This document shows positions 3,809 through 53,195 of a stretch of 64,000 bases of DNA, piece by piece. Within the stretch, counting starts at the first letter, position 1. Every line of letters begins with the position of its first letter. A model generated the notes under the pieces. That model was not told the DNA's origin. It ran no database searches and saw nothing but the letters and a program-made list of their open reading frames with translations. This stretch comes from Escherichia phage Mansfield, in sequence record MK903282.1. One strand, written 5' to 3'. A program made the translations under genes and the position numbers.

Positions 3809-3842
3809 CCTGCGCGGCAGGCAAAATAAAGGGCCGCAGCAG

Positions 3843-3884
3843 CGACCCACGACCCACGACCCACGACCCACGACCCACGACCCA
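3843..3884. repeat. tandem heptamer (CGACCCA) x6
   Basis: Six perfect head-to-tail copies; followed by a 12-bp direct repeat CCCACTATTCAC at 3881 and 3909. Confidence 0.85.
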
Positions 3885-3913: not shown

Positions 3914-4309
3914 CTATTCACTCTTATGGGCATCACCAAAGCCATCCGCAATCTGGCTGATCAGCGATTCAATGGACACAGTTTTACCAATTGATCGAGC
4001 GGTAATAGCAAGCATATTATCAATCAAACCGCGATTGACTGCATATGTTTCAGGTTTTGATTCATCTCCAGGACAACCAAAAAGCTGGTCGCGCAAACTT
4101 TCGAGGGAACGCTCAATATTTTCCAGCTTCTCTTCTAAATCGGATTGGCGACGTAAAACCCATGTTAAGTCGCGGTTGCCGACTTCCAATCCATTATAAT
4201 CGCAAGATGGAACGTCAATTTTGATGCTGCCACCAAAGGCCATTCCGCTGCCTTTAGTATATGCGTGGTGAATAGAATCATTTTTATTTGACATATCATT
4301 ACCTTTCAT
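3914..4309 (-). CDS. hypothetical protein (131 aa)
   Basis: ORF; no motif recognised. Confidence 0.5.
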   Translation of the reverse strand: MKGNDMSNKNDSIHHAYTKGSGMAFGGSIKIDVPSCDYNGLEVGNRDLTWVLRRQSDLEEKLENIERSLESLRDQLFGCPGDESKPETYAVNRGLIDNMLAITARSIGKTVSIESLISQIADGFGDAHKSE

Positions 4310-4367
4310 GAGGGTGATTAACTTAAATTATAATAAAGCCGCATAGCGCGGCATTCAAATCGGTTTG

Positions 4368-4616
4368 TTAATTGTAACGATTGGATTCATCAATCGATAC
4401 CAACTGTGCTGGGTCGCCGGATACGGTCGAGCCAACGATACCCATCTGCTGAAAGAACTCTGAATAAACTTCCTTCCAGTATTTACGCGCTGCTTTCTGA
4501 GCCTGTCCTTTGCGCTTGAAGCTTTTACCTTGAAAGATGAAACGGTCGCTTGCCGCTCGATACTCCACCACACCTTCCAGCCATTGTAAGAATGCTACTG
4601 ATTCATTCTGATTCAT
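4368..4616 (-). CDS. hypothetical protein (82 aa)
   Basis: ORF; overlapping alternative frame 4355..4573 judged less likely. Confidence 0.4.
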   Translation of the reverse strand: MNQNESVAFLQWLEGVVEYRAASDRFIFQGKSFKRKGQAQKAARKYWKEVYSEFFQQMGIVGSTVSGDPAQLVSIDESNRYN

Positions 4617-4623
4617 GTTAACC

Positions 4624-5019
4624 TCAATATTTTAATAAGAAAGCACCCAACCAACTTTCCTCAATCTCGCGCCCAGTAGCCACACGGTCGGTCTTTGCCA
4701 TGGGTCTGGATTCGCCACATGGCAATCCGTCTTGTAGTTGTGTACTATTTCCAATTCTCACCATGACCTTTCCATCAGGGGCGATATAAGCGCGACAACC
4801 CATGATTTCGAGTCGTTGTAGACACTGGCGAATCGTTTTCAGCCTTTCACCGGACCGGATAGAGCGCGGTCGCGACCGCTGACCGTTCTTATTCACTGTA
4901 CGCTTAACGACAGGAATCTCATTGGTGCGTTGCGCTTTCGGTCGGTAGTAGGCTTCTTCTCCAGGAGTTGCGCCTGGCGTCAATTCGCGCTTGAGAGCCT
5001 TTTCAATATCGATGATCAT
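4624..5019 (-). CDS. hypothetical basic protein (131 aa)
   Basis: ORF; Arg/Lys-rich N-terminal half. Confidence 0.5.
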   Translation of the reverse strand: MIIDIEKALKRELTPGATPGEEAYYRPKAQRTNEIPVVKRTVNKNGQRSRPRSIRSGERLKTIRQCLQRLEIMGCRAYIAPDGKVMVRIGNSTQLQDGLPCGESRPMAKTDRVATGREIEESWLGAFLLKY

Positions 5020-5022
5020 GAT

Positions 5023-5121
5023 TTATGCCGCTGCAGCGTAAACAATTGCATAAGCAATTCCAAATAGCGCGGCGATGCATACCGTGCCCCAAAGTGCAAA
5101 GCGTCGTGACTCTTTATCCAT
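5023..5121 (-). CDS. small hydrophobic peptide (32 aa), tentative
   Basis: Not in the ORF track (<60 aa); ATG abuts the stop of 5122..5409 (TAAATG); translation MDKESRRFALWGTVCIAALFGIAYAIVYAAAA. Confidence 0.25.
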   Translation of the reverse strand: MDKESRRFALWGTVCIAALFGIAYAIVYAAAA

Positions 5122-5409
5122 TTATTTATCCCCAACGTCCATGAAATTAAACACTAATTTTGCCATGTCATCTTGTGAAACGACACTGTAGTGTTTAGGC
5201 AAATTGCTTTCTGACAATACCTTCTGGGCTTCTTCTGCCGTCTCAAACAAAGGAATGCACCAATTAACTGCGTCGCCAGAATCATTGCTATCAACTTGTT
5301 TCAAGAAAACCAAGCGGTTGTCTTCAGGATCAATTCCGCAAATCACGTATTTAGGCAATGCTTTTGCTTTTTGGGCCTTATCGATGTCTTCAAATTTCAT
5401 TTCATTCAC
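5122..5409 (-). CDS. hypothetical protein (95 aa)
   Basis: ORF. Confidence 0.5.
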   Translation of the reverse strand: MNEMKFEDIDKAQKAKALPKYVICGIDPEDNRLVFLKQVDSNDSGDAVNWCIPLFETAEEAQKVLSESNLPKHYSVVSQDDMAKLVFNFMDVGDK

Positions 5410-5483
5410 CTCACTTGTTAACGTATAATGAGTATAACTTAATAGAGCATAAAGTAAAGGCGCTTTTCAGCGCCTTGAGTGAA

Positions 5484-7775
5484 TTATTTTGCTGCCTTTA
5501 GCGCGGCTATCTCTGCCTTCAAATCTTCAATTTGCTTATTGAGATACTGCACACAACCCATCAAGTCCATGACGATTGGGTTGTTGTCCACTGAAGGTCG
5601 GTCGCGCGTCTTCTCGCCTATCTTATTGCCTTCCTCATCAAAAATATCCTCATAAGGCATTTCATGATGCTTGATGTATTGTGGTGCGATCACCTCCGCT
5701 TCTTCGGCAATAATCCCGAATCTTACGCGCTCTTGCTCGTCATCCTTGTAGACAAAGTTCACTAGACGCTGTGAATTGATTCTGTCCATCGCTTCCTTTG
5801 CATCTGCATCAACGATGTCCCTTTTATATTCAAGACCGGACGTGCCTTGAAGCGCGATTGTTCCAGATGTTGAAGTCGGGAAGTCGAGAGTGATTTCACC
5901 AGTACGGTTGCCATCCTTGCGACGGAAGAATAAACGATAGTAGCGCGTACCGTTGGTGCCCAGCGCGGCTTCAAAAAACATCATACCGCCTACAACCGTG
6001 TCAGGGACTGTTCCGCCGCCGATGTAGTTTGGCTTCATCGAAAGTTGCGGGTACTGCCCATCAATGATTGAAACGCTGCCAGCAAATACTGCGTTTCCTT
6101 TGGAAGTTATCATCCCAGGGGCAGTAAAATCACCTCTTTCGTTAAAGTCATATACCGCTGTCAATCCGCTTGTTCGGTTATACACGTTTAAACGTGCATA
6201 ATACGTCGCGCCAATCGCTGCGCGGATACGCCAACTCATTTGCGCTTCTTGAACGCCATTAACGTTGTAGCGTGAAATGATTTCGCCGCCGTCAGCAGTG
6301 GTGCCTGGGCCTGGCATAGCGGAGTCACCAGTGATCACACTCCAAGATGTATTCGCTGCAACAAACCCGCCAGATGCACGAATAACCCAGACGCCTACAA
6401 AGCAGTCAGGGCGCACCTTTGACGAGCGTCCGTAAGCGGCATTCGACCTGCTTGCGCTATAGTTGAATGTTCCGTATCTGGTTTCAGAAGAAGGCGTTGC
6501 AATATTTATTGCTTGGTTGTTTTGTGAAGAAAAAGAGAATGCACCATATCCATTGCCTGTTTGATATGTATACGCGGTGAAAGAGCCTGTTATGTCTGGG
6601 GCACCGTTTTCAAACACATCACCTGCAGCAGATGATATTCCGCCGTCACCACGTCCGAACAATTCCTTAATTGAACCCGTCTGCACGCCGTTAAAATCAG
6701 GTACGCGAAATGTCGTCGTACCGTTACCGGAAGAATAACGACCGCGTTTTTTCGAGTCTGCAAGCCAGTCAGCATCAGCAATAGGGGAAAGCATTTGTGC
6801 ATACGCCCAAAGCTCAGGCCAGTCTGCACGGTTAAGTAATTGACCGTCCGCTACGACCTCGTACGGTTGGATATATGCACGACTATTTCGTAAGTGGAAG
6901 TCCCCAACGCCATAGTTCATAACACCGTTCATGTTTGGCCCAACGGTGCCTGTATTTACTAAGTTTTCCACCCAACGCTTTGTCGCGGCATCATAATCGT
7001 TGACTGGGTCACCAGCAAGCGGCGTTGAACCTTGTGGGCGAATGTTTAACCATGCTTGAGCATTCTCTCCAGAGCCTGTGCCGCCCATGGAAGTCGGAAC
7101 AACGCTCTGATCGGCCACAGGTCCGAATCCGAATGCATCTTTCATCCCCTGAATTGTGGTTTGGCCTGTTCCACCGTTCGATATTGGGATGATGCTCTGC
7201 TCACTGTAGATTGCTTTCCAAGGACTCCAACCAACAACTGGGTCATGAACTCGAATAAATTGAGAACCATTATTGTTGTATATGGTGTATATTTGTACGC
7301 ATCCATCAGCGCCATTTGCATAATTCTGCTTAACTTCCAGAACACCAGCAATTTGGGCTGGATAGTTTAGAGCAGGTGATGCATTGCTTGATCTGTCTTG
7401 ATAATAATAACCAAACCAGGTGCCAGTCAGAGCATTGAGATTTATTCCAGATGGAATAGGCCCGAAATTTCTAACAGTATTGGTCAAAGATGCGGCAGTA
7501 GTACGAATTGAAAGTAAATCACCAGCCGCCCATGCACGTGCTGCCGTACCTTCTTGTGCACGTTGAACGGTCAGGACGTTTCCAACCACGGCTGTTACTG
7601 TGACGATTTCGAATTGGAGGCCTGTTGCAGCGTCGACGATTGTCGCCACTACACGCTCGTTTGCGCCCAAAGTCGGAAAACCCGACCCTGAGCGAATTGT
7701 TATTGTGGTGTCTGAAGTCGTCGTTGGTTGAGCCAGCGCGACCTCAAAGTTGTTTTTGAATATTAGCCTTGGCAT
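5484..7775 (-). CDS. tail fiber/tailspike with C-terminal intramolecular chaperone (peptidase S74-like) domain
   Basis: 763 aa, Gly/Ser/Thr/Asn-rich body; C-terminal ~110 aa (...SGLEYKRDIVD...RFGIIAEEAEVIAPQY...IEDLKAEIAALKAAK) matches the autoproteolytic chaperone domain of phage fibers. Confidence 0.75.
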   Translation of the reverse strand: MPRLIFKNNFEVALAQPTTTSDTTITIRSGSGFPTLGANERVVATIVDAATGLQFEIVTVTAVVGNVLTVQRAQEGTAARAWAAGDLLSIRTTAASLTNTVRNFGPIPSGINLNALTGTWFGYYYQDRSSNASPALNYPAQIAGVLEVKQNYANGADGCVQIYTIYNNNGSQFIRVHDPVVGWSPWKAIYSEQSIIPISNGGTGQTTIQGMKDAFGFGPVADQSVVPTSMGGTGSGENAQAWLNIRPQGSTPLAGDPVNDYDAATKRWVENLVNTGTVGPNMNGVMNYGVGDFHLRNSRAYIQPYEVVADGQLLNRADWPELWAYAQMLSPIADADWLADSKKRGRYSSGNGTTTFRVPDFNGVQTGSIKELFGRGDGGISSAAGDVFENGAPDITGSFTAYTYQTGNGYGAFSFSSQNNQAINIATPSSETRYGTFNYSASRSNAAYGRSSKVRPDCFVGVWVIRASGGFVAANTSWSVITGDSAMPGPGTTADGGEIISRYNVNGVQEAQMSWRIRAAIGATYYARLNVYNRTSGLTAVYDFNERGDFTAPGMITSKGNAVFAGSVSIIDGQYPQLSMKPNYIGGGTVPDTVVGGMMFFEAALGTNGTRYYRLFFRRKDGNRTGEITLDFPTSTSGTIALQGTSGLEYKRDIVDADAKEAMDRINSQRLVNFVYKDDEQERVRFGIIAEEAEVIAPQYIKHHEMPYEDIFDEEGNKIGEKTRDRPSVDNNPIVMDLMGCVQYLNKQIEDLKAEIAALKAAK

Positions 7776-7813
7776 TTTACGGTCCTCGTTTTGTCGACAA
7801 CCGTATTATAACC

Positions 7814-8155
7814 TTAATTTCTTTTGAGAGGAATATGACGGTTGCTGTCATTATTTGGTTTAATAATGAGCATAAAAACGATTAGAAAGATGATGGCTGA
7901 TATACTTAATTCAATCAGCGCGGCTTGAGATATGGATTGATCTTCATGATACTGCTTTTGCATTTCCGCTCTCTTTTGAGCGCAAACTTCAGGCGATATA
8001 TAATCTCCTTTTGAGTTGCCATAATAAATCTCGCCATTCTCAGAAATAAGCCTGCCGCAAATATCCGTATCGGCCTTTGCGCTTGACATCATAATAACGG
8101 TGCCGATGATAGCAGCAATTGTCCAAATTAGCAGTTGTGATAAAGTGTTGTTCAT
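7814..8155 (-). CDS. membrane protein (113 aa)
   Basis: N-terminal and C-terminal hydrophobic segments; AAGAGG SD. Confidence 0.5.
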   Translation of the reverse strand: MNNTLSQLLIWTIAAIIGTVIMMSSAKADTDICGRLISENGEIYYGNSKGDYISPEVCAQKRAEMQKQYHEDQSISQAALIELSISAIIFLIVFMLIIKPNNDSNRHIPLKRN

Positions 8156-8173
8156 AATAACCTCTTTAAATTA

Positions 8174-8194
8174 CCCTTCCCATGTCGGGAAGGG
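8174..8194. other. perfect 8-bp hairpin (CCCTTCCC / GGGAAGGG)
   Basis: Lies between minus-strand genes just upstream of the 7814..8155 SD; possible attenuator. Confidence 0.35.
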
Positions 8195-8352
8195 TGAATA
8201 TTATTTTACGCGAAAGAATAAGCGCGTGCCACACAGCGAGTCCCAACGGCCCTCACCATCCCATATCGACCCAACACCAGCGGTGATTGGGCCAGCAGAA
8301 TTGGCGGCATTGGCCCAGGCGAGTCGTTTCAGTTTCCAACTGCACCAACGAT

Positions 8353-8616
8353 TCACAGTTCACCTCCAGACTGCAAAACAAGTCCCGCATAGAGGATTGC
8401 TAGAGCTAAAGGCGCACCACTTCCAGCCTCTCTATTCTCTTTGATTTGAAGAGTATCCTTAAGAAATTGCAACTGAACGTTGAATTCATTTTCAATTCCA
8501 AGCACTACAGATAATTCTTTTACAGAATCTGCATATGCCTTGTCTAGAACTTCTTTTGGTAATGTTAAAGTCAATTCACTTGCCATTCTCTTTCCACTCC
8601 ACAAATGTGCTGCCAC
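8353..8616 (-). CDS. hypothetical protein (87 aa; start may be internal)
   Basis: ORF. Confidence 0.4.
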   Translation of the reverse strand: MAAHLWSGKRMASELTLTLPKEVLDKAYADSVKELSVVLGIENEFNVQLQFLKDTLQIKENREAGSGAPLALAILYAGLVLQSGGEL

Positions 8617-8797
8617 TTGTTTCTCTATTTAGCAGGTATCTGCCGCGCATTCCATGAAGGCTGAATTCAACCGTCGATGGATTAGATTTTGAAAGCCACA
8701 TGGCCTGACCGTCGAACGGTCCGCCAACGCATGTGTATTTAGCCTTTGGCTCACTCCTTTTGGGTCGCTTTGCCCGCTCTTTGATTGATAGTCTCAT
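8576..8797 (-). CDS. hypothetical protein (73 aa)
   Basis: ORF; basic N-terminus. Confidence 0.4.
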   Translation of the reverse strand: MRLSIKERAKRPKRSEPKAKYTCVGGPFDGQAMWLSKSNPSTVEFSLHGMRGRYLLNRETSGSTFVEWKENGK

Positions 8798-9012
8798 CAG
8801 TCTTCACCTTGAGATTCCAGACAAGTAAGAACAAGCCACGTCATCGGAAGAATCAAAACCAGAGAAATAAGGGACCAGATGGACCAGCACAAGATGACAG
8901 ACTTGAATGTGTGAACGTCGCCAAACACAGCAGTGAAACAAAATCCCATCACAAAAGCAAGCGTGGTGGAGTGGTTATCAATGGCTTTGATGGCGCGGTC
9001 GATGAGTTTCAT
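8797..9012 (-). CDS. small membrane protein (71 aa)
   Basis: Two predicted hydrophobic helices. Confidence 0.45.
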   Translation of the reverse strand: MKLIDRAIKAIDNHSTTLAFVMGFCFTAVFGDVHTFKSVILCWSIWSLISLVLILPMTWLVLTCLESQGED

Positions 9013-9101
9013 ATTACCTCCGGTTTTGAGTTAATATGATTATAACGCAGAGTTTCAGAAAGGCAAACTTTTTGTGAATTTATGCCGTCCATGGCAAATG
9101 A

Positions 9102-9332
9102 TTAGTGAGAAGACACGACTAATGTGCCGCTTCCTTTCGCGAAAATCTCAACACCTGGCGGGATTGTGACCGTGCCAACAACTGCGATGCCGATCAACTT
9201 GTCGTCTGCTTTTTCTTCGAAACAGATCTCTGCGGCACCGCCGCGAACTTGAATAAGTGCGCCTGATACGTTTTCAACAACAGAAAGAACGGAAGTGTAA
9301 GATGGAGTGAGTTGAATATTTACTAGGGCCAT
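9102..9332 (-). CDS. hypothetical protein (76 aa)
   Basis: ORF. Confidence 0.45.
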   Translation of the reverse strand: MALVNIQLTPSYTSVLSVVENVSGALIQVRGGAAEICFEEKADDKLIGIAVVGTVTIPPGVEIFAKGSGTLVVSSH

Positions 9333-9343
9333 GATTTACTCCT

Positions 9344-9373
9344 GATAAAAAAATGGCCAGAAAGAATCTGGCC
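9344..9373 (-). terminator. hairpin with A-run on plus strand (minus-strand terminator-like)
   Basis: GGCCAGA / TCTGGCC 7-bp stem preceded by AAAAAAA; oriented to stop leftward transcripts although no minus gene lies to its right. Confidence 0.3.
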
Positions 9374-9420
9374 GAAAAGATCACCCTTTATCCACTACTA
9401 AGCTGGAATCACAATTTTAC

Positions 9421-9450
9421 TTGATATAGCTGTCTCAAGCAAACTATAAT
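9421..9450 (+). promoter_or_regulatory. sigma70-like promoter TTGATA-N18-TATAAT
   Basis: -10 ends at 9450, so the ATG at 9451 cannot be the terminase start. Confidence 0.5.
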
Positions 9451-9483
9451 ATGAATAAAATATTAACACATAATTGGAAAGTC

Positions 9484-10911
9484 ATGTACCAGTTGAATCC
9501 TGCTTTAAGAGAAGTTTGGAAGACGAAAGCGCGATACAAAGTAATATACGGCGGTCGTGCATCTTCCAAATCGCATGATGCCGCTGGTTTTGCTATTTAT
9601 TTGGCGGCAAACTTTAAATTAAAATTCCTTTGCGTTCGACAATTCCAGAACAAGATTTCTGAATCAGTATATACGCTATTAAAAGATAAGATAGAGATTT
9701 CTGATTTTAAAGACGAGTTCAACTTATTAAAGAACTCTATTGAACACAAAAGAACAAAATCTGAATTCTTATTTTACGGTATCGCACGCAACGTTGACGA
9801 AATCAAATCAACAGAAGGCGTTGATGTTCTTTGGCTTGAAGAAGCGCATGCACTGACTGAAGAACAATGGGACATTATTGAGCCGACCATTCGTAAGGAA
9901 GGGTCAGAAATATGGATCATATTTAACCCTGATGAAGAGGCCGATTTCGTCTACCAGAACTTTGTCATGCGACCGCCGAAGAATGCCATCGTTAAGAAGA
10001 TCAACTGGCAAGACAACCCATTTTTGTCACAAACAATGCTGGATGTTATTGCTGGCATGTATGAGCGCGACCCGAAAAAGGCAGAACACGTTTATGGCGG
10101 AGTACCGAAGACAGGCGGCGACAAGTCGGTCATCAACCGTGCATTCGTCAAGGCCGCGCTAAACCTCCACAAACACCCTACGCTGGGATGGAGCTTGTCA
10201 GGGTCTAACCGTATAGGCTTTGACGTGGCGGACGACGGCGACGACTTAAACGCCACAGCATTTGTCACGGGCAACGTATTGCGCGGCATCAAGACATGGG
10301 AAGGTCTGGAAGATGAATTGCTTAAGTCCGCAAGCGGAGTTTGGAAAGACGCATTGACATTCGGCGCATCAATTACCTATGACGCAATCGGTGTTGGTGC
10401 ATTTGCTGGTTCAAAATTTGATGAGCTTAATGAGTATGCAATCCATGAAAATCCAACATTCCCAAGAATCGAATTTAATGCGTTCAACGCGCAAGGTGCT
10501 GTTGATGATCCTGATGATGTTTTCCTTGAGTTACCACACGTTGAAATACTCAATAAAGACCATTTCGCAAACATAAAAGCGCAAAAATGGACTGAGATTG
10601 CCGAACGATTCAGGAAGACATATGAATATGCGACAGGGCAAGCCGTATATCCGACCGATGAGTTGATTTCCATCGACACAGACGGCATTCCAGAACTTGG
10701 GATTCCTGCTTGGTCTGCGGAAGAGATTGAGACGTTTCTTTTTGAGATGTCAGCGCCGCGCAAAGATACGTCTGTACTTGGCAAGTTCAAAGTTGAATCG
10801 AAAAAAGATATGGCAAAGCGTGGAGTCAAATCGCCTAACAAAGCGGACGCCGCAATCATGGCATTGATGAAACCAATTGTTGCAGCATCCGGCTTCTTCT
10901 CTAACCTTTAA
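9484..10911 (+). CDS. terL: terminase large subunit
   Basis: N-terminal ATPase with Walker A-like GGRASSKS and Walker B-like VLWLEE; C-terminal nuclease-like half; start moved from 9451 to 9484. Confidence 0.9.
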   Translation: MYQLNPALREVWKTKARYKVIYGGRASSKSHDAAGFAIYLAANFKLKFLCVRQFQNKISESVYTLLKDKIEISDFKDEFNLLKNSIEHKRTKSEFLFYGIARNVDEIKSTEGVDVLWLEEAHALTEEQWDIIEPTIRKEGSEIWIIFNPDEEADFVYQNFVMRPPKNAIVKKINWQDNPFLSQTMLDVIAGMYERDPKKAEHVYGGVPKTGGDKSVINRAFVKAALNLHKHPTLGWSLSGSNRIGFDVADDGDDLNATAFVTGNVLRGIKTWEGLEDELLKSASGVWKDALTFGASITYDAIGVGAFAGSKFDELNEYAIHENPTFPRIEFNAFNAQGAVDDPDDVFLELPHVEILNKDHFANIKAQKWTEIAERFRKTYEYATGQAVYPTDELISIDTDGIPELGIPAWSAEEIETFLFEMSAPRKDTSVLGKFKVESKKDMAKRGVKSPNKADAAIMALMKPIVAASGFFSNL

Positions 10912-10914
10912 CAA

Positions 10915-11154
10915 CTAAAGCATTCCGTGCTGAAGGTCGAGTTTTCTTGCGGCAAATGACCTGGCACGGAATCGCTTACCCGCTCTTACTGCCTGTCGAA
11001 TTTTCTTTTGCAAACACTTACGGTCAAAATCGTTGCGGTCGACGGCTTCGAGTAAATCACGACGCAACGCACCCAGTGTCGACTTTTCGGAGACTTCAAC
11101 GCCCAGCGCGGCTGCAACGTCTTTCAAAACATCGAGTTCGGTTAAAGTTCTCAT
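10915..11154 (-). CDS. hypothetical protein (79 aa)
   Basis: ORF; N-terminal segment LKDVAAALGVEVSEK resembles a Rho-N/SAP-like helix pair. Confidence 0.45.
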   Translation of the reverse strand: MRTLTELDVLKDVAAALGVEVSEKSTLGALRRDLLEAVDRNDFDRKCLQKKIRQAVRAGKRFRARSFAARKLDLQHGML

Positions 11155-11567
11155 TTGATAATCCCCTTGATGTCTGATTCTGCCATAAAGATTGGAGTGC
11201 CGCCGCCAGGAACAATCGAGCGCGTTACTTTGTCAAAAATATCGTTCTCTTCAACTTGAATACGATAAAATTTATTTTTGGATGAAGATGGGCACAATCC
11301 CATAAATTTGCCGATGCCGCGAACGCATTCATCTTCAAAGTATACTGTTTCACCTTGAATGGATTCGATGTTGTCTACTGGATAGACCTTGCGACCCAAC
11401 AACCACTCATCTAAAGTCGCCTGCAAGACGTTTCGCGCATCTAAAATCCACGGGTCAATAGTAGCACCTTCGTATCGCGCAGCAGTAGCCTTTGCCAGTT
11501 CTTCATATTCGCATACGTTAACGACTTCGCCGTTGTGCAAGACGACAAATACAATTGTTGTGCTCAT
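11151..11567 (-). CDS. hypothetical protein (138 aa)
   Basis: ORF overlapping the previous stop by 4 nt (coupled). Confidence 0.5.
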   Translation of the reverse strand: MSTTIVFVVLHNGEVVNVCEYEELAKATAARYEGATIDPWILDARNVLQATLDEWLLGRKVYPVDNIESIQGETVYFEDECVRGIGKFMGLCPSSSKNKFYRIQVEENDIFDKVTRSIVPGGGTPIFMAESDIKGIIK

Positions 11568-11662
11568 TTCAATCTCCTTTCGTTTGGTTAACTAAAATAT
11601 AACTCAAAATGATACAAAAGCAAAATATTTTATGAACTATTTATGATCACCATACATATCAT

Positions 11663-11691
11663 TTGCTTACAAACACATGAATATTTATAAT
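11663..11691 (+). promoter_or_regulatory. sigma70-like promoter TTGCTT-N17-TATAAT
   Basis: Upstream of the portal start at 11730. Confidence 0.45.
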
Positions 11692-11729
11692 ATAGATTGA
11701 TTCCCTTTCACTGTCAGGTGGCGTTAACA

Positions 11730-14105
11730 ATGAAAATTCTTGGCATAAAACTCTGGGAGAAGACGCAACCAGAAGCCGAACCAGCGGAGATGCCGCCAGG
11801 CGACCCATTGGCACCGTTTGAACGCCTTGAAAGGCGCGGCAGCGGTCAACGCTGGGAAAAGACTGAAAGCAATCGACCGACCTTTAAAACGGTTGATGAC
11901 TTCCCTTTATATGAACCTGATATTAATGGCGACGGTGTTGCTATCATAAAAGGTCGTTCAGTCGATTCCGCAACAGTATCCAAAAAGGTTATGGATAATG
12001 CCTTGAAGAACATCAGTTCAGAAGGGCAGGTCAACCCATACACAGTCCCTATTCAACTTCAAAACTGGTATTTGTCACAGTCATTCATCGGCTATCAAGC
12101 TTGTGCCATCATCGCACAGCACTGGCTGGTGAACAAGGCGTGTTCCATGGTAGGCCGCGATGCGGTCCGTAAAGGCTGGGAAGTCAAATCCAGTTCTGAG
12201 TCAGAATTATCAGTGCAGGCCAGCGAACGCCTAAAGCAAATTGATAAAGAATTTAATATCAAAGAGCACTTAGTTGAAGCCGAACGATTCAAAAATATTT
12301 TTGGTATCCGCGTCATCATATTTGATGTGCGTAGTGATGACCCAGAATACTACAGCAAACCTTTTAACATTGATGGTGTGACAAAGGGGTCTTATAAGGG
12401 AATCATTCAGGTTGACCCTTATTGGATGATGCCATTTTTGACGTCTGAAAACACCGCCGACCCTGCATCACAGCACTTCTATGATCCAGAATACTGGGTG
12501 ATCAGTGGACAACGTTATCATCGAAGCCACCTGATCATTTTGCGCAACGATGAGCCAGCTGATATTCTCAAGCCGACTTATATTTACGGCGGCATTCCTT
12601 TGACTCAGCAGATTTATGAACGCATCTATGCCGCTGAGCGTACCGCTAACGAAGCGCCATTGCTGGCGATGTCCAAGCGTACAACCACGCTGCGGACCGA
12701 CGTTGACAAGGCGATTGCCAATGAGAGGTCTTTTGCTGAACGTCTGATGATGTGGATTAAGTACCGCGACAACTATGCAGTCAAAGTGCTTGGTCAAAAA
12801 GAAGAGATGGACCAGTTCGACATCAACTTGTCAGACTTCGATAGCATCATCATGAACCAGTACCAGCTGGTGGCTGCAATCGCAAAAGTTCCGTCAACCA
12901 AACTTCTTGGGACTTCGCCAAAAGGCTTTAACGCCACTGGTGAATTTGAGATGGTCAGCTATCACGAAGAGTTGGAAACTTGCCAGCAGCATGACCTGAC
13001 AAAAATTCTCGACCGCCATTACAAAATCCTTCTCAAATCAGAAGGGGTGGAAGTCGATGTTAAGGTCGCATGGGAACCAGTTGGCTCACTTACTGCTACT
13101 CAACTTGCAGAAATCAACGACAAGCGAGCTAACACTGGCAAAACTCTTATTGATGCTGGCGTCATTTCTCCTGATGAAGAGCGCGACCGCATCAAAGACG
13201 ACAAAAACAGCGGCTACAACCGTCTGCCGGAAGACGCAGCAGAAGAAACCCCAGGGATGTCTCCAGAGAATATGGCATTGCTTGGCAAGTCTGCTGGTGA
13301 AGTCCTGCAAGGCAAGGCCGATATTGAACAGGCGAAAGCTGATGTCGTTAAGATGGGCGGCCAGTTCTATAGCGAAACAGGTATTATGCCAGAAGGTGCC
13401 GCGCGTGGTGAGTTGGCGGAAAACCCTGACAAAGCGCCTGTCGAAATCAACATGGACGATACCGATGATGAATCAAGCCATCAGGTTGATGTCCTAACGC
13501 AGTTGAAAGAAGGTCTGGAGGGTATTGCTGATTATTACCTGAAAGAAGGTCAGGATGTGGATTTTGACCCTCAAAAAGATTCACGGTCGGTACAACCGTC
13601 TACCCTTCCAAGCGTCAAAGGTAATGTCGTTAACTTACGACACAACGTTGGAAAGATGGATGCAGCATCGTTACCTAAGATGAAGTTGCACGGGCTGATT
13701 CTTGGGATTGAGAATCCTCGCAACAGCATCCGTAGAGGGAACAGCCTTGACGGTGAATGGGCAGTCAAGATGCCGCATCACTACGGATTCATCAAGGGCA
13801 CTAAGGGCGCGGACGGCGATGAAGTCGACTGCTTTGTTGGTCCAAATATGAAGTCGCCGAAGGTCTTTATCGTTAACCAGAATGATAATTACTCTGGCGA
13901 GTTTGATGAACACAAGTGCATGCTTGGATTCGATTCAGCAGAAGAAGCGAAAGAAGCTTATCAAGCATCATTTGGTAACGGGTGGAACGGATTTGACTCA
14001 ATCCACGAATTGGATGTAAACTCGTTCAAGGAGTGGTTGAAGGGTGATTGCTCTCAAGCATACGGAGCACTCAATAATCCTACTAATTCACCGAAGCAAG
14101 GTTGA
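11730..14105 (+). CDS. portal protein with C-terminal pyrophosphatase-like extension
   Basis: Large protein directly after terminase with acidic C-terminal region; start trimmed to 11730 (GGTGG SD); C-terminal ~150 aa contain HYGFI...DGDEVDC (13779-13832). Confidence 0.7.
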   Translation: MKILGIKLWEKTQPEAEPAEMPPGDPLAPFERLERRGSGQRWEKTESNRPTFKTVDDFPLYEPDINGDGVAIIKGRSVDSATVSKKVMDNALKNISSEGQVNPYTVPIQLQNWYLSQSFIGYQACAIIAQHWLVNKACSMVGRDAVRKGWEVKSSSESELSVQASERLKQIDKEFNIKEHLVEAERFKNIFGIRVIIFDVRSDDPEYYSKPFNIDGVTKGSYKGIIQVDPYWMMPFLTSENTADPASQHFYDPEYWVISGQRYHRSHLIILRNDEPADILKPTYIYGGIPLTQQIYERIYAAERTANEAPLLAMSKRTTTLRTDVDKAIANERSFAERLMMWIKYRDNYAVKVLGQKEEMDQFDINLSDFDSIIMNQYQLVAAIAKVPSTKLLGTSPKGFNATGEFEMVSYHEELETCQQHDLTKILDRHYKILLKSEGVEVDVKVAWEPVGSLTATQLAEINDKRANTGKTLIDAGVISPDEERDRIKDDKNSGYNRLPEDAAEETPGMSPENMALLGKSAGEVLQGKADIEQAKADVVKMGGQFYSETGIMPEGAARGELAENPDKAPVEINMDDTDDESSHQVDVLTQLKEGLEGIADYYLKEGQDVDFDPQKDSRSVQPSTLPSVKGNVVNLRHNVGKMDAASLPKMKLHGLILGIENPRNSIRRGNSLDGEWAVKMPHHYGFIKGTKGADGDEVDCFVGPNMKSPKVFIVNQNDNYSGEFDEHKCMLGFDSAEEAKEAYQASFGNGWNGFDSIHELDVNSFKEWLKGDCSQAYGALNNPTNSPKQG

Positions 14106-53167: not shown

Positions 53168-53195
53168 AAAAAAAGACCCACAACAAGTGTGGGTC
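53168..53195 (-). terminator. rho-independent terminator (minus strand)
   Basis: GACCCACA / TGTGGGTC 8-bp stem, 5-nt loop, followed on the minus strand by T7. Confidence 0.7.

What the first reader, a model, noticed from the sequence alone, without database searches (positions are those of the whole stretch)
9344..9373. Terminator-like hairpin oriented against an empty strand
A 7-bp stem preceded on the plus strand by an A7 run would function as a terminator only for leftward transcription, yet the DNA to its right encodes the plus-strand terminase. It may stop antisense read-through, act as a 5' structure, or mark an insertion boundary of the minus-strand gene block 3914-9332.
Basis: seen in the sequence. 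Interest (0 to 1): 0.2.

Follow-up and report, generated by a model that had tools for sequence, protein, structure and literature searches.

The report
Leader terminator beside the terminase promoter
The hairpin is a real, conserved, ordinary transcription terminator for leftward transcription in an E. coli Wifcevirus phage; it most likely sits just downstream of a leftward promoter that overlaps the terminase promoter, so it limits how much transcription enters the leftward gene block.

Summary
GGCCAGA-AAGAA-TCTGGCC (9355-9373) follows A7 plus T (9347-9354). On the minus strand this reads as a 7-bp hairpin (-13.6 kcal/mol) followed by AUUUUUUUAU, a textbook intrinsic terminator, and it is far beyond chance. 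The window is a Wifcevirus close to ECML-117. The GenBank records of phages WFH and WFC already annotate this hairpin as a putative terminator.

The stem is invariant in 15 relatives while the loop varies. Kylevirus phages have a hairpin with a different stem sequence plus U7 at the same position.

The strand to the right is not truly empty. A leftward sigma70-like promoter (9442..9414) is interleaved with the terL promoter. Its -35 TTG and -10 TAnnnT are invariant at 17-bp spacing in four diverged lineages. A leftward two-gene operon (10915-11567) also runs into terL with no terminator of its own.

The hairpin lies 4 nt upstream of the ribosome-binding site of a real 76-aa gene (9102-9332), which has no promoter of its own.

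My best reading is a promoter-proximal leader terminator. Most transcripts would end as an RNA of about 60 nt, and read-through would feed the 76-aa gene. The same hairpin would also stop any antisense transcription crossing terL. All transcription steps are inferred, not measured. The element is ordinary and of low interest.

The parts
9355..9373 (-). Terminator hairpin: 7-bp stem GGCCAGA/UCUGGCC with 5-nt loop UUCUU (read on the minus strand)
   Evidence: -13.6 kcal/mol, z -4.5. The stem is invariant in 15 Wifcevirus relatives while the loop has 5 variants. It is annotated as 'terminator' in the WFH and WFC GenBank records.
9347..9354 (-). A plus U7 tract of the terminator (minus strand AUUUUUUU)
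   Evidence: 'CCATTTTTTT' is invariant across Wifcevirus, Kyle, PA1 and L026.
9374..9407 (-). Predicted 5' leader, about 34 nt, between the inferred leftward transcription start (about 9407) and the hairpin. It has no leader peptide with an SD and no alternative antiterminator fold
   Evidence: Inferred from the promoter geometry. Fold. No complementarity of 11 nt or more elsewhere in the window.
9414..9442 (-). Candidate leftward sigma70-type promoter P(left): -35 TTGCTT (9442..9437), 17-bp spacer, -10 TAAAAT (9419..9414)
   Evidence: TTG and T-A-n-n-n-T are invariant at 17-bp spacing in four diverged lineages, while the spacer and the middle of the -10 vary. It falls below the scan threshold in the window (3 of 6 in the -35) but is reported by the scan in Kyle at the identical geometry.
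9421..9450 (+). terL promoter TTGATA-18-TATAAT (11 of 12), interleaved with P(left) on the opposite strand
   Evidence: The same site is found in Kyle, PA1 and L026.
9102..9332 (-). 76-aa gene directly behind the terminator (RBS AGGAG at 9343..9339, 4 nt after the U-tract). It has no promoter of its own
   Evidence: Purifying selection: 29 synonymous against 6 non-synonymous codon changes compared with Eco4M-7, mostly at third positions. Close homologues in other Wifcevirus genomes.
9083..9346 (-). 264-bp presence/absence cassette (RBS, 76-aa gene and 20 nt). Present in the window, ECML-117, TH35, TH32 and Eco4M-7. Absent in WFH, WFC, FEC19, ECO71P1, Ro157lw, SP13 and L005
   Evidence: GC 47.3% against 46.1% for the window, and no boundary repeats.
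9039..9066 (-). Next leftward promoter P2, TTGCCT-16-TATAAT (10 of 12), driving the 71-aa gene 8797..9012 and onwards. In cassette-less relatives it lies about 28 nt after the terminator's T-tract
9484..10911 (+). Terminase large subunit gene. The likely true start is ATG 9484 with RBS GGAAAG, because the ATG at 9451 abuts the -10 hexamer
10915..11567 (-). Leftward two-gene operon (138 aa and 79 aa), convergent with terL with a 3-nt gap and no intrinsic terminator. It is a possible source of antisense transcripts that would reach the hairpin
   Evidence: promoter-like sites at 11636..11609 and 11717..11689.

Best explanation
The element is a genuine Rho-independent terminator acting on leftward (minus-strand) transcription. 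It sits in the 5' leader of the leftward gene block. A leftward sigma70-type promoter (9442..9414) occupies the same 30 bp as the terL promoter on the opposite strand. It should start transcription near 9407 and meet the hairpin about 35 nt later. Most transcripts would therefore end in the U-tract (9353-9347) as an RNA of about 60 nt. Only the fraction that reads through reaches the 76-aa gene, whose RBS begins 4 nt after the U-tract and which has no promoter of its own. The rest of the block is driven by its own promoter, P2 (9066..9039). Because all leftward transcription must pass this point, the same hairpin would also stop any antisense transcripts crossing terL from the 10915-11567 operon. 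What is shown: the hairpin plus U7, its conservation, its position relative to real genes, and the conserved promoter-like hexamers. What is inferred: that the promoter fires, where transcription starts, how efficient termination is, and whether read-through is constitutive or factor-regulated.
For: 1. The terminator anatomy is canonical and far beyond chance.
2. Within Wifcevirus the 14 stem positions never vary, while the loop has five variants, including a length change and a full flip. A rough estimate of 0 of about 7 variable sites falling in the stem gives p about 0.014.
3. Kylevirus phages (Kyle, PA1) and contig L026, whose intergenic DNA is barely alignable to the window, carry a hairpin with a different stem (GGUGGACAG...CUGCUCCACC, -13.9 to -16.5 kcal/mol) plus the same AUUUUUUU at the same place. 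There it lies 3-4 nt before the RBS of their first leftward gene, a 301-aa ORF conserved between Kyle and PA1.
4. Upstream of the hairpin, the leftward -35 TTG and -10 T-A-n-n-n-T are invariant at 17-bp spacing in all four lineages (TTGCTT/TAAAAT, TTGATT/TAAAAT, TTGATT/TAATAT, TTGATA/TATCCT), while the spacer and the middle of the -10 vary. The conserved CAA on the plus strand has no role in the terL promoter.
5. The 76-aa gene is under purifying selection, so it must be transcribed, yet there is no room for a promoter between the U-tract and its RBS.
6. Elsewhere in the same block, terminators are placed before promoters (5476..5457 with 5458..5431; 4352..4338 with 4358..4330). A promoter placed before a terminator is therefore a distinct arrangement.
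7. Premature terminators in 5'UTRs that give abundant short RNAs plus a read-through mRNA have been mapped experimentally in many virulent phages (PMC10914365).
Against: There are no transcript data for any Wifcevirus or Kylevirus, and the published annotations rest on prediction tools only. In the window P(left) matches only 3 of 6 in the -35 hexamer and fell below the scan threshold. The four lineages are related, so conservation of the hexamers is suggestive but not proof. The leader has no alternative antiterminator structure, no leader peptide and no Rfam match, so any regulation would need an unidentified protein factor. In relatives that lack the cassette, P(left) plus the terminator encloses no gene at all, which a simple 'leader of a gene' reading does not explain. 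Terminator efficiency cannot be computed reliably here.
Confidence: 0.55

Rival explanations
1. The hairpin is purely an insulator. It has no nearby promoter, and its job is to end antisense read-through that starts at the leftward 138-aa/79-aa operon (11567 to 10915) and crosses the whole terL gene. That keeps such transcription from entering the leftward block, which includes a tail-fibre gene.
For: That operon is convergent with terL with only a 3-nt gap and no canonical terminator. The only candidate on the minus strand before the hairpin is a poor one at 10889..10846 with tail CGCTTTGTT. Lineages that do have a hairpin terminator at the 3' end of terL (MyoSmar, PCSE1, Pbunavirus E215 and relatives, L035) lack a canonical terminator upstream of terL. 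The two lineages without a junction terminator (Wifcevirus, Kylevirus) have the upstream one. In cassette-less relatives the hairpin is followed by promoter P2, the same terminator-then-promoter arrangement seen elsewhere in the block.
Against: It does not explain the conserved leftward -35/-10 hexamers upstream of the hairpin. It also does not explain why real genes (the 76-aa gene, the Kyle/PA1 301-aa gene) sit directly behind the terminator without a promoter. A 1.5-kb untranslated antisense RNA would normally be ended by Rho in E. coli long before 9373; this is established knowledge of Rho suppression of antisense transcription and was not tested here. The lineage correlation rests on about one evolutionary event, and E215 may have both kinds of terminator.
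Confidence: 0.25
2. The palindrome is mainly a DNA site for a dimeric regulator (an operator) that controls the divergent promoters, and its resemblance to a terminator is secondary.
For: It is a perfect 7-bp inverted repeat with conserved arms and a variable centre, which also fits a protein site. A recent preprint reports that terminator palindromes can double as transcription-factor sites (bioRxiv 10.64898/2026.08.19.745784).
Against: The palindrome is unique in the window; the other 3 matches at 3 mismatches are within the chance range. The Kylevirus counterpart has a different sequence and a bulged, asymmetric stem, which an RNA hairpin tolerates better than a dimer site. The invariant U7 tract is unexplained by a DNA-binding role. 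The centre lies about 93 bp upstream of the predicted terL start.
Confidence: 0.05
3. The hairpin is a 5'-terminal stabilising stem of the leftward mRNA. Transcription would start just upstream of the hairpin, so it would protect the message and not terminate it.
For: The hairpin lies 4 nt before the RBS of the first leftward gene in two genera.
Against: The only promoter-like hexamers that would place a start at about 9376-9380 are poor: TTGTGA-16-GATAAA, which lacks the critical -7 T (read directly). A stabiliser would not need an invariant U7 tract.
Confidence: 0.05
4. The hairpin is a functionless scar or recombination boundary left by insertion of foreign DNA.
For: The right-hand edge of the 264-bp presence/absence cassette coincides exactly with the end of the T-tract. 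The WFH loop (TTATT) is the reverse complement of the ECO71P1 loop (AATAA), which indicates DNA-level rearrangement at the palindrome.
Against: The hairpin is present and invariant whether or not the cassette is there. The cassette has normal GC content, no boundary repeats, and no promoter or terminator of its own. Its protein has a probable Kylevirus counterpart in the same syntenic position (hhalign probability 73%, E 3e-5), which favours ancestral presence followed by loss. A structurally equivalent terminator exists in Kylevirus.
Confidence: 0.04

Closest known systems
Canonical Rho-independent (intrinsic) terminators of E. coli and its phages; the orthologous hairpin is annotated as 'terminator' in GenBank MK373776 (WFH) and MK373777 (WFC)
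   Same: A GC-rich 7-8 bp stem, a short loop, and an immediately following U7 tract. It is unidirectional. The orthologous site in relatives is already annotated as a putative terminator, with a note of -14.10 in WFC.
   Different: It does not follow the 3' end of any gene. It lies at the head of a gene block, in a divergent promoter region.
Promoter-proximal terminators of phage late operons: lambda PR'-tR' (194-nt 6S RNA, read through after Q antitermination). This comparison rests on established knowledge.
   Same: A sigma70 promoter fires into an intrinsic terminator a short distance downstream. Genes behind it, including virion genes, need read-through. A short terminated RNA is the default product.
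   Different: No Q-like factor, Q-binding element or pause signal has been identified here. The leader is much shorter (about 60 nt). Most of the downstream block has its own sigma70-like promoter, P2, so at most one small gene depends on read-through in this window.
5'UTR premature-termination sites giving short RNAs in virulent Pseudomonas phages (ONT-cappable-seq; Putzeys et al. 2024, PMC10914365)
   Same: A terminator lies immediately downstream of a promoter and upstream of the first gene. It predicts two transcript forms: a short RNA under 250 nt and a read-through mRNA. The sequence is conserved within the genus.
   Different: Those sites were mapped experimentally; this one is only predicted. 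At about 60 nt the RNA would fall below the roughly 80-nt detection limit stated for that method.
Promoter-coupled terminators (Fletcher et al., bioRxiv 10.64898/2026.08.19.745784)
   Same: Close physical coupling of a terminator and a promoter for neighbouring same-strand units. In cassette-less relatives the terminator's T-rich tail lies just upstream of promoter P2.
   Different: The defining geometry is a -10 hexamer right after the T-tract, with the transcription start about 10 bp from the termination site. That is absent here: an RBS follows the T-tract in the window, and the P2 -35 hexamer is about 28 nt away in WFH. The order here is promoter then terminator, not terminator then promoter.

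Membership tests
Rho-independent (intrinsic) terminator | Stable GC-rich stem-loop (about 5-14 bp, loop 3-8 nt) | tested here: met
   7-bp stem with 5 GC pairs and a 5-nt loop; -13.6 kcal/mol, z -4.5.
Rho-independent (intrinsic) terminator | U-rich tract immediately 3' of the stem on the transcribed strand | tested here: met
   AUUUUUUUAU on the minus strand; GAAAAGAU on the plus strand, so it is unidirectional.
Rho-independent (intrinsic) terminator | Structure conserved in relatives independently of sequence | tested here: met
   The stem is invariant and the loop variable in 15 Wifcevirus sequences. Kylevirus has a different stem with the same U7 at the same position. A position-by-position covariation test was not informative because the two stems could not be aligned in register.
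Rho-independent (intrinsic) terminator | Transcription arrives on that strand, and RNA 3' ends map to the U-tract | not testable with these tools
   Only predicted sources are available: P(left) at 9442..9414 and the 10915-11567 operon. No RNA data were found in the literature.
5' leader (promoter-proximal) terminator / attenuator | Same-strand promoter within about 250 nt upstream, with no gene in between | tested here: inconclusive
   Conserved TTG-17 bp-TAnnnT in four lineages, with a predicted start about 34 nt before the hairpin. The match in the window is weak (8 of 12) and promoter activity was not measured.
5' leader (promoter-proximal) terminator / attenuator | The terminator precedes the RBS of a real gene that lacks its own promoter | tested here: met
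   RBS AGGAG lies 4 nt after the U-tract, and the 76-aa ORF is under purifying selection. The layout is the same in Kyle, PA1 and L026.
5' leader (promoter-proximal) terminator / attenuator | A switch that modulates termination (alternative RNA fold, leader peptide, riboswitch or antiterminator protein) | tested here: not met
   The hairpin dominates the ensemble (0.89). No competing fold is apparent in the 101-nt context, there is no SD-preceded leader ORF and no Rfam family. A protein antiterminator cannot be tested here. The element therefore works like a leader terminator, but regulated attenuation is not shown.
Promoter-coupled terminator (Fletcher et al. preprint) | A -10 hexamer directly after the T-tract, with the transcription start within about 35 bp (mode 10 bp) of the termination site | tested here: not met
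   In the window the T-tract is followed by AUCAGGAG (the RBS). In WFH the next -35 hexamer is about 28 nt downstream, so the start would be about 65 nt away.
Bidirectional terminator | U-tract after the hairpin on both strands | tested here: not met
   The plus-strand tail is GAAAAGAUCA, and only the minus strand is reported.
Moron or inserted-cassette boundary | A cassette with its own promoter and terminator, atypical composition, or flanking repeats | tested here: not met
   The cassette 9083-9346 has no promoter and only a weak 4-bp hairpin after its stop codon. Its GC is 47.3% against 46.1% for the window. There are no boundary repeats beyond 5 nt.

The most novel reading that the evidence does not exclude
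P(left) plus the hairpin form a dedicated 'empty' transcription unit whose product or activity matters in its own right. In the many Wifceviruses that lack the 76-aa gene, the unit encloses no gene yet is kept intact. It could make a small regulatory RNA of about 60 nt. Alternatively, because P(left) occupies the same 30 bp as the near-consensus terL promoter on the opposite strand, it could act as a competing promoter that doses or times terminase expression. In that case the terminator would be there to release RNA polymerase quickly.
Probability: 0.12. Interest if true: 0.5.

Novelty: new member of a known kind. Interest (0 to 1): 0.2.

Why it matters
The significance is mostly housekeeping. 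The analysis explains an apparently misplaced terminator and shows that the 'empty strand' has plausible transcription sources. It gives a testable map of transcription units around the terminase gene of Wifcevirus and Kylevirus phages, several of which are candidate biocontrol or therapy phages against E. coli O157. If the promoter-then-terminator unit is confirmed, it adds an enterobacterial example to the growing list of phage 5'UTR premature terminators. It would also offer a compact natural part, consisting of overlapping divergent promoters plus a leader terminator. The analysis also flags several probable start-codon and gene mis-annotations in public records.

Tried and rejected
- **Rfam.** A search of 8900-9700 on both strands at E up to 1 found no family.
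- **Covariation test.** RNAalifold on Wifcevirus plus Kylevirus hairpins failed because MAFFT could not put the two stems in structural register, so the pair counts are meaningless.
- **More lineages.** A pattern spanning the interleaved promoter core was scanned in viral and metagenome contigs.
- **Repeated operator.** No other copy of the palindrome exists in the window.
- **Trans-acting antisense RNA.** There is no complementarity of 11 nt or more between the predicted leader RNA and any other place in the window. Host targets were not tested.
- **Function of the 76-aa protein.** There were no PHROG or Pfam hits, and only close homologues in the 5.8-billion-protein search.
- **Gene on the 'empty' strand inside terL.** The 160-aa antisense ORF (10377..10859) is broken in Kyle and PA1 and changes non-conservatively within Wifcevirus, so I rejected it as an artefact.
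- **Promoter-coupled terminator, bidirectional terminator and moron boundary.** The defining features were not met (see the membership tests).
- **Packaging or genome-end signal.** WFC and WFH have terminal repeats of about 3.7 kb at the record ends, roughly 5.6 kb from the hairpin (PMC6563267), so I did not pursue this.
- **Supplementary tables for phage 14-1.** The transcription start and termination tables of Putzeys et al. are not held in the library.

Full report
**What is there.** On the plus strand, A7 (9347-9353) and T (9354) precede GGCCAGA (9355-9361), AAGAA (9362-9366) and TCTGGCC (9367-9373). On the minus strand this reads GGCCAGA-UUCUU-UCUGGCC followed by AUUUUUUUAU. The consensus scan reports it as terminator-like on the minus strand only, and the plus-strand tail GAAAAGAU is not U-rich. 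The 41-nt minus-strand RNA folds at -13.6 kcal/mol (z = -4.5; none of 200 shuffles folds as well), and the hairpin makes up 89% of the ensemble. Under strict criteria the 64-kb window holds 2 such sites against 0.025 expected. The other is an ordinary inter-gene terminator at 53195..53175.

**Genome context.** The window is a Wifcevirus, 96.8% identical to Escherichia phage ECML-117 over 8000-12000. To the left lies a leftward gene block that starts with a 76-aa ORF (9102..9332) and contains a 763-aa tail-fibre gene. To the right lies plus-strand terL. The GenBank records of WFH and WFC already annotate the orthologous hairpin as a minus-strand 'terminator'. Those annotations come from the ARNold prediction tool (PMC6563267). 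The Eco4M-7 paper also used prediction tools only. I found no transcript mapping for this genus.

**Conservation.** In 15 Wifcevirus sequences the 14 stem positions never change. The loop is AAGAA, AATAA, AAAAA, AAAAAA or TTATT, the A-run is 7 or 8, and the base after the stem varies. A rough estimate that none of about 7 variable sites would fall in the stem gives p about 0.014.

More telling are the Kylevirus phages Kyle and PA1 and the metagenomic contig L026 (terL 75-78% identical). Their intergenic DNA is barely alignable to the window, yet they carry a hairpin with a different stem (GGUGGACAG...CUGCUCCACC, -13.9 to -16.5 kcal/mol) followed by the same AUUUUUUU at the same position. In those phages it lies 3-4 nt before the RBS and ATG of the first leftward gene. 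That gene is a 301-aa ORF conserved between Kyle and PA1. A formal covariation count was not possible because the two stems could not be aligned in register. The palindrome is unique in the window and matches no Rfam family.

**The strand to the right is not empty.** Two possible sources of leftward transcription exist.

(a) A four-lineage alignment of the terL-proximal intergenic region shows a leftward -35 TTG and a -10 T-A-n-n-n-T. Both are invariant at 17-bp spacing:
- window: TTGCTT/TAAAAT (9442..9414)
- Kyle: TTGATT/TAAAAT
- PA1: TTGATT/TAATAT
- L026: TTGATA/TATCCT

The spacer and the middle of the -10 are free to vary. In Kyle the scan reports this site independently, at exactly the same offset from the terL promoter. 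This P(left) is interleaved with the near-consensus terL promoter TTGATA-18-TATAAT (9421-9450, 11 of 12). The two promoters share the same 30 bp on opposite strands. The predicted leftward start is near 9407, about 34 nt before the hairpin.

(b) The 138-aa and 79-aa genes (11567 to 10915) are leftward, have promoter-like sites upstream, and are convergent with terL with a 3-nt gap. Between them and the hairpin the minus strand has only one poor candidate terminator, at 10889..10846.

**What lies behind the hairpin.** The RBS AGGAG (9343..9339) begins 4 nt after the U-tract, so there is no room for a promoter. The 76-aa ORF is a real gene. Compared with Eco4M-7 it has 29 synonymous and 6 non-synonymous codon differences, mostly at third positions. 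It must therefore be transcribed through the terminator.

This gene lies on a 264-bp presence/absence cassette (9083-9346). The cassette is present in the window, ECML-117, TH35, TH32 and Eco4M-7. It is absent in WFH, WFC, FEC19, ECO71P1, Ro157lw, SP13 and L005. Where it is absent, the T-tract is followed about 28 nt later by promoter P2 (TTGCCT-16-TATAAT, window 9066..9039) and then the 71-aa gene.

The cassette has normal GC content and no flanking repeats. Its protein has a probable Kylevirus counterpart, gp19: hhalign probability 73%, E 3e-5, with a shared C-terminal A-K/R-G-S-G-T-L motif. In Kyle that gene lies between the leader terminator and a second terminator/TTGCCT-promoter pair. 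The simplest history is a series of gene losses between the leader terminator and P2: two genes in Kylevirus, one in this window, and none in WFH-type phages. It is not an insertion.

**Mechanism.** I conclude with high confidence (about 0.85-0.9) that this is a functional intrinsic terminator for leftward transcription. The more specific reading I favour (0.55) is a promoter-proximal leader terminator. P(left) fires into it, most transcripts end as an RNA of about 60 nt, and read-through supplies the 76-aa gene. The rest of the block has its own promoters and terminator-then-promoter pairs (5476..5457 with 5458..5431; 4352..4338 with 4358..4330; block-end terminator 3855..3831).

This promoter-then-terminator layout is the same as lambda PR'-tR' (established knowledge). 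It also matches the many 5'UTR premature terminators mapped in virulent Pseudomonas phages, which give an abundant short RNA plus a read-through mRNA (PMC10914365).

I found no switch. There is no competing fold, no SD-preceded leader peptide and no riboswitch match. Read-through is therefore either constitutive leakage or depends on an unidentified protein.

**Main rival (0.25).** The hairpin may be purely an insulator against antisense read-through from the 10915-11567 operon. One observation supports this. Relatives with a hairpin terminator at the 3' end of terL (MyoSmar, PCSE1, Pbunavirus, L035) lack a canonical terminator upstream of terL, whereas Wifcevirus and Kylevirus have the reverse arrangement. 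However, that pattern amounts to about one evolutionary event, and E215 may have both. This rival also does not explain the conserved P(left) hexamers or the promoter-less genes behind the hairpin. A 1.5-kb untranslated antisense RNA would normally be ended by Rho in E. coli (established knowledge, not tested here). The two roles are not exclusive, because any leftward polymerase must pass this site.

**Other readings.** An operator palindrome, a 5' stabilising stem and a functionless recombination scar each fail on the invariant U7, on the different and bulged Kylevirus stem, or on the hairpin's invariance with and without the cassette. The geometry of promoter-coupled terminators (bioRxiv 10.64898/2026.08.19.745784) is not met.

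**Verdict.** The element is an ordinary terminator, already annotated as a prediction in two relatives, placed in a less common but known position as a promoter-proximal leader. It is a new member of a known kind and of low interest (0.2).

The most novel reading not excluded (about 0.12) concerns relatives in which P(left) plus the terminator enclose no gene yet are retained. There the unit might be kept for a small RNA of about 60 nt, or as a competitor of the fully overlapping terL promoter. The predicted RNA has no complementarity of 11 nt or more elsewhere in the window.

Noticed in passing
window 8171-8197 (minus strand 8197..8171): A second hairpin directly in front of a gene. On the minus strand ACCCUUCCC-GACAU-GGGAAGGGU is followed by AAUUUAAAGAGG (the RBS) and the ATG of the 113-aa membrane protein at 8155. 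The scan reported it as a plus-strand terminator inside the leftward block. It could be a weak terminator or an mRNA-stability element between the 51-aa ORF and the 113-aa gene.
   Followed up: partly
window 9083-9346; L001 6075-6095: The 76-aa gene is a 264-bp presence/absence cassette among Wifceviruses. Together with Kylevirus it suggests stepwise gene loss (two, one, then no genes) between the leader terminator and promoter P2.
   Followed up: yes
hairpin loop, window 9362-9366; L001 6103-6107; L009: The WFH loop (TTATT) is the exact reverse complement of the loop in ECO71P1, Ro157lw and L005 (AATAA), with identical stems. This indicates a DNA-level flip of the loop at the palindrome.
   Followed up: no
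window 9451 vs 9484: The terL start is annotated at the upstream ATG (1461-nt CDS) in ECML-117, Eco4M-7 and Ro157lw. That ATG abuts the -10 hexamer of the predicted promoter. ATG 9484 with RBS GGAAAG (1428-nt CDS, as in WFH, WFC and FEC19) is more likely.
   Followed up: partly
L016 (Pantoea phage Kyle) 1435-2434: KYLE_21 is probably annotated too short. A 301-aa ORF starting at the ATG right after the hairpin, U7 and RBS is conserved with PA1. The plus-strand KYLE_22 (2210-2434) overlaps that extension and is probably spurious.
   Followed up: partly
window 10911-10915; 10846-10889: terL and the 79-aa gene are convergent with a 3-nt gap and no canonical terminator. The only candidate is a long imperfect hairpin inside the terL coding end (10889..10846, tail CGCTTTGTT). 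Relatives such as MyoSmar, PCSE1 and Pbunavirus have a clear hairpin terminator at this junction.
   Followed up: partly
window 10377-10859 (minus): A 160-aa ATG ORF lies antisense inside terL. It is open in all Wifceviruses but broken in Kyle and PA1, and its changes are non-conservative, so it is judged a frame artefact.
   Followed up: yes
window 9066, 16399, 18340, 51112; L016 1127; L018 about 2395: TTGCCT recurs as the -35 hexamer of promoter-like sites in this phage and in Kyle and MyoSmar, which suggests a lineage-typical promoter flavour.
   Followed up: no
window 5457-5476 / 5431-5458 and 4338-4352 / 4330-4358 (minus): Terminator-then-promoter pairs whose T-rich tails overlap the next -35 hexamer subdivide the leftward block. 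These pairs, unlike the finding itself, resemble the promoter-coupled terminators of the Fletcher et al. preprint.
   Followed up: no
L012/L013/L010, equivalent of window 9429-9440: In WFC, FEC19 and Eco4M-7 the spacer shared by the two interleaved promoters contains a perfect 12-bp palindrome, GCTTGTACAAGC. The window has GCTGTCTCAAGC there. It could be a regulator site and is unexplained.
   Followed up: no
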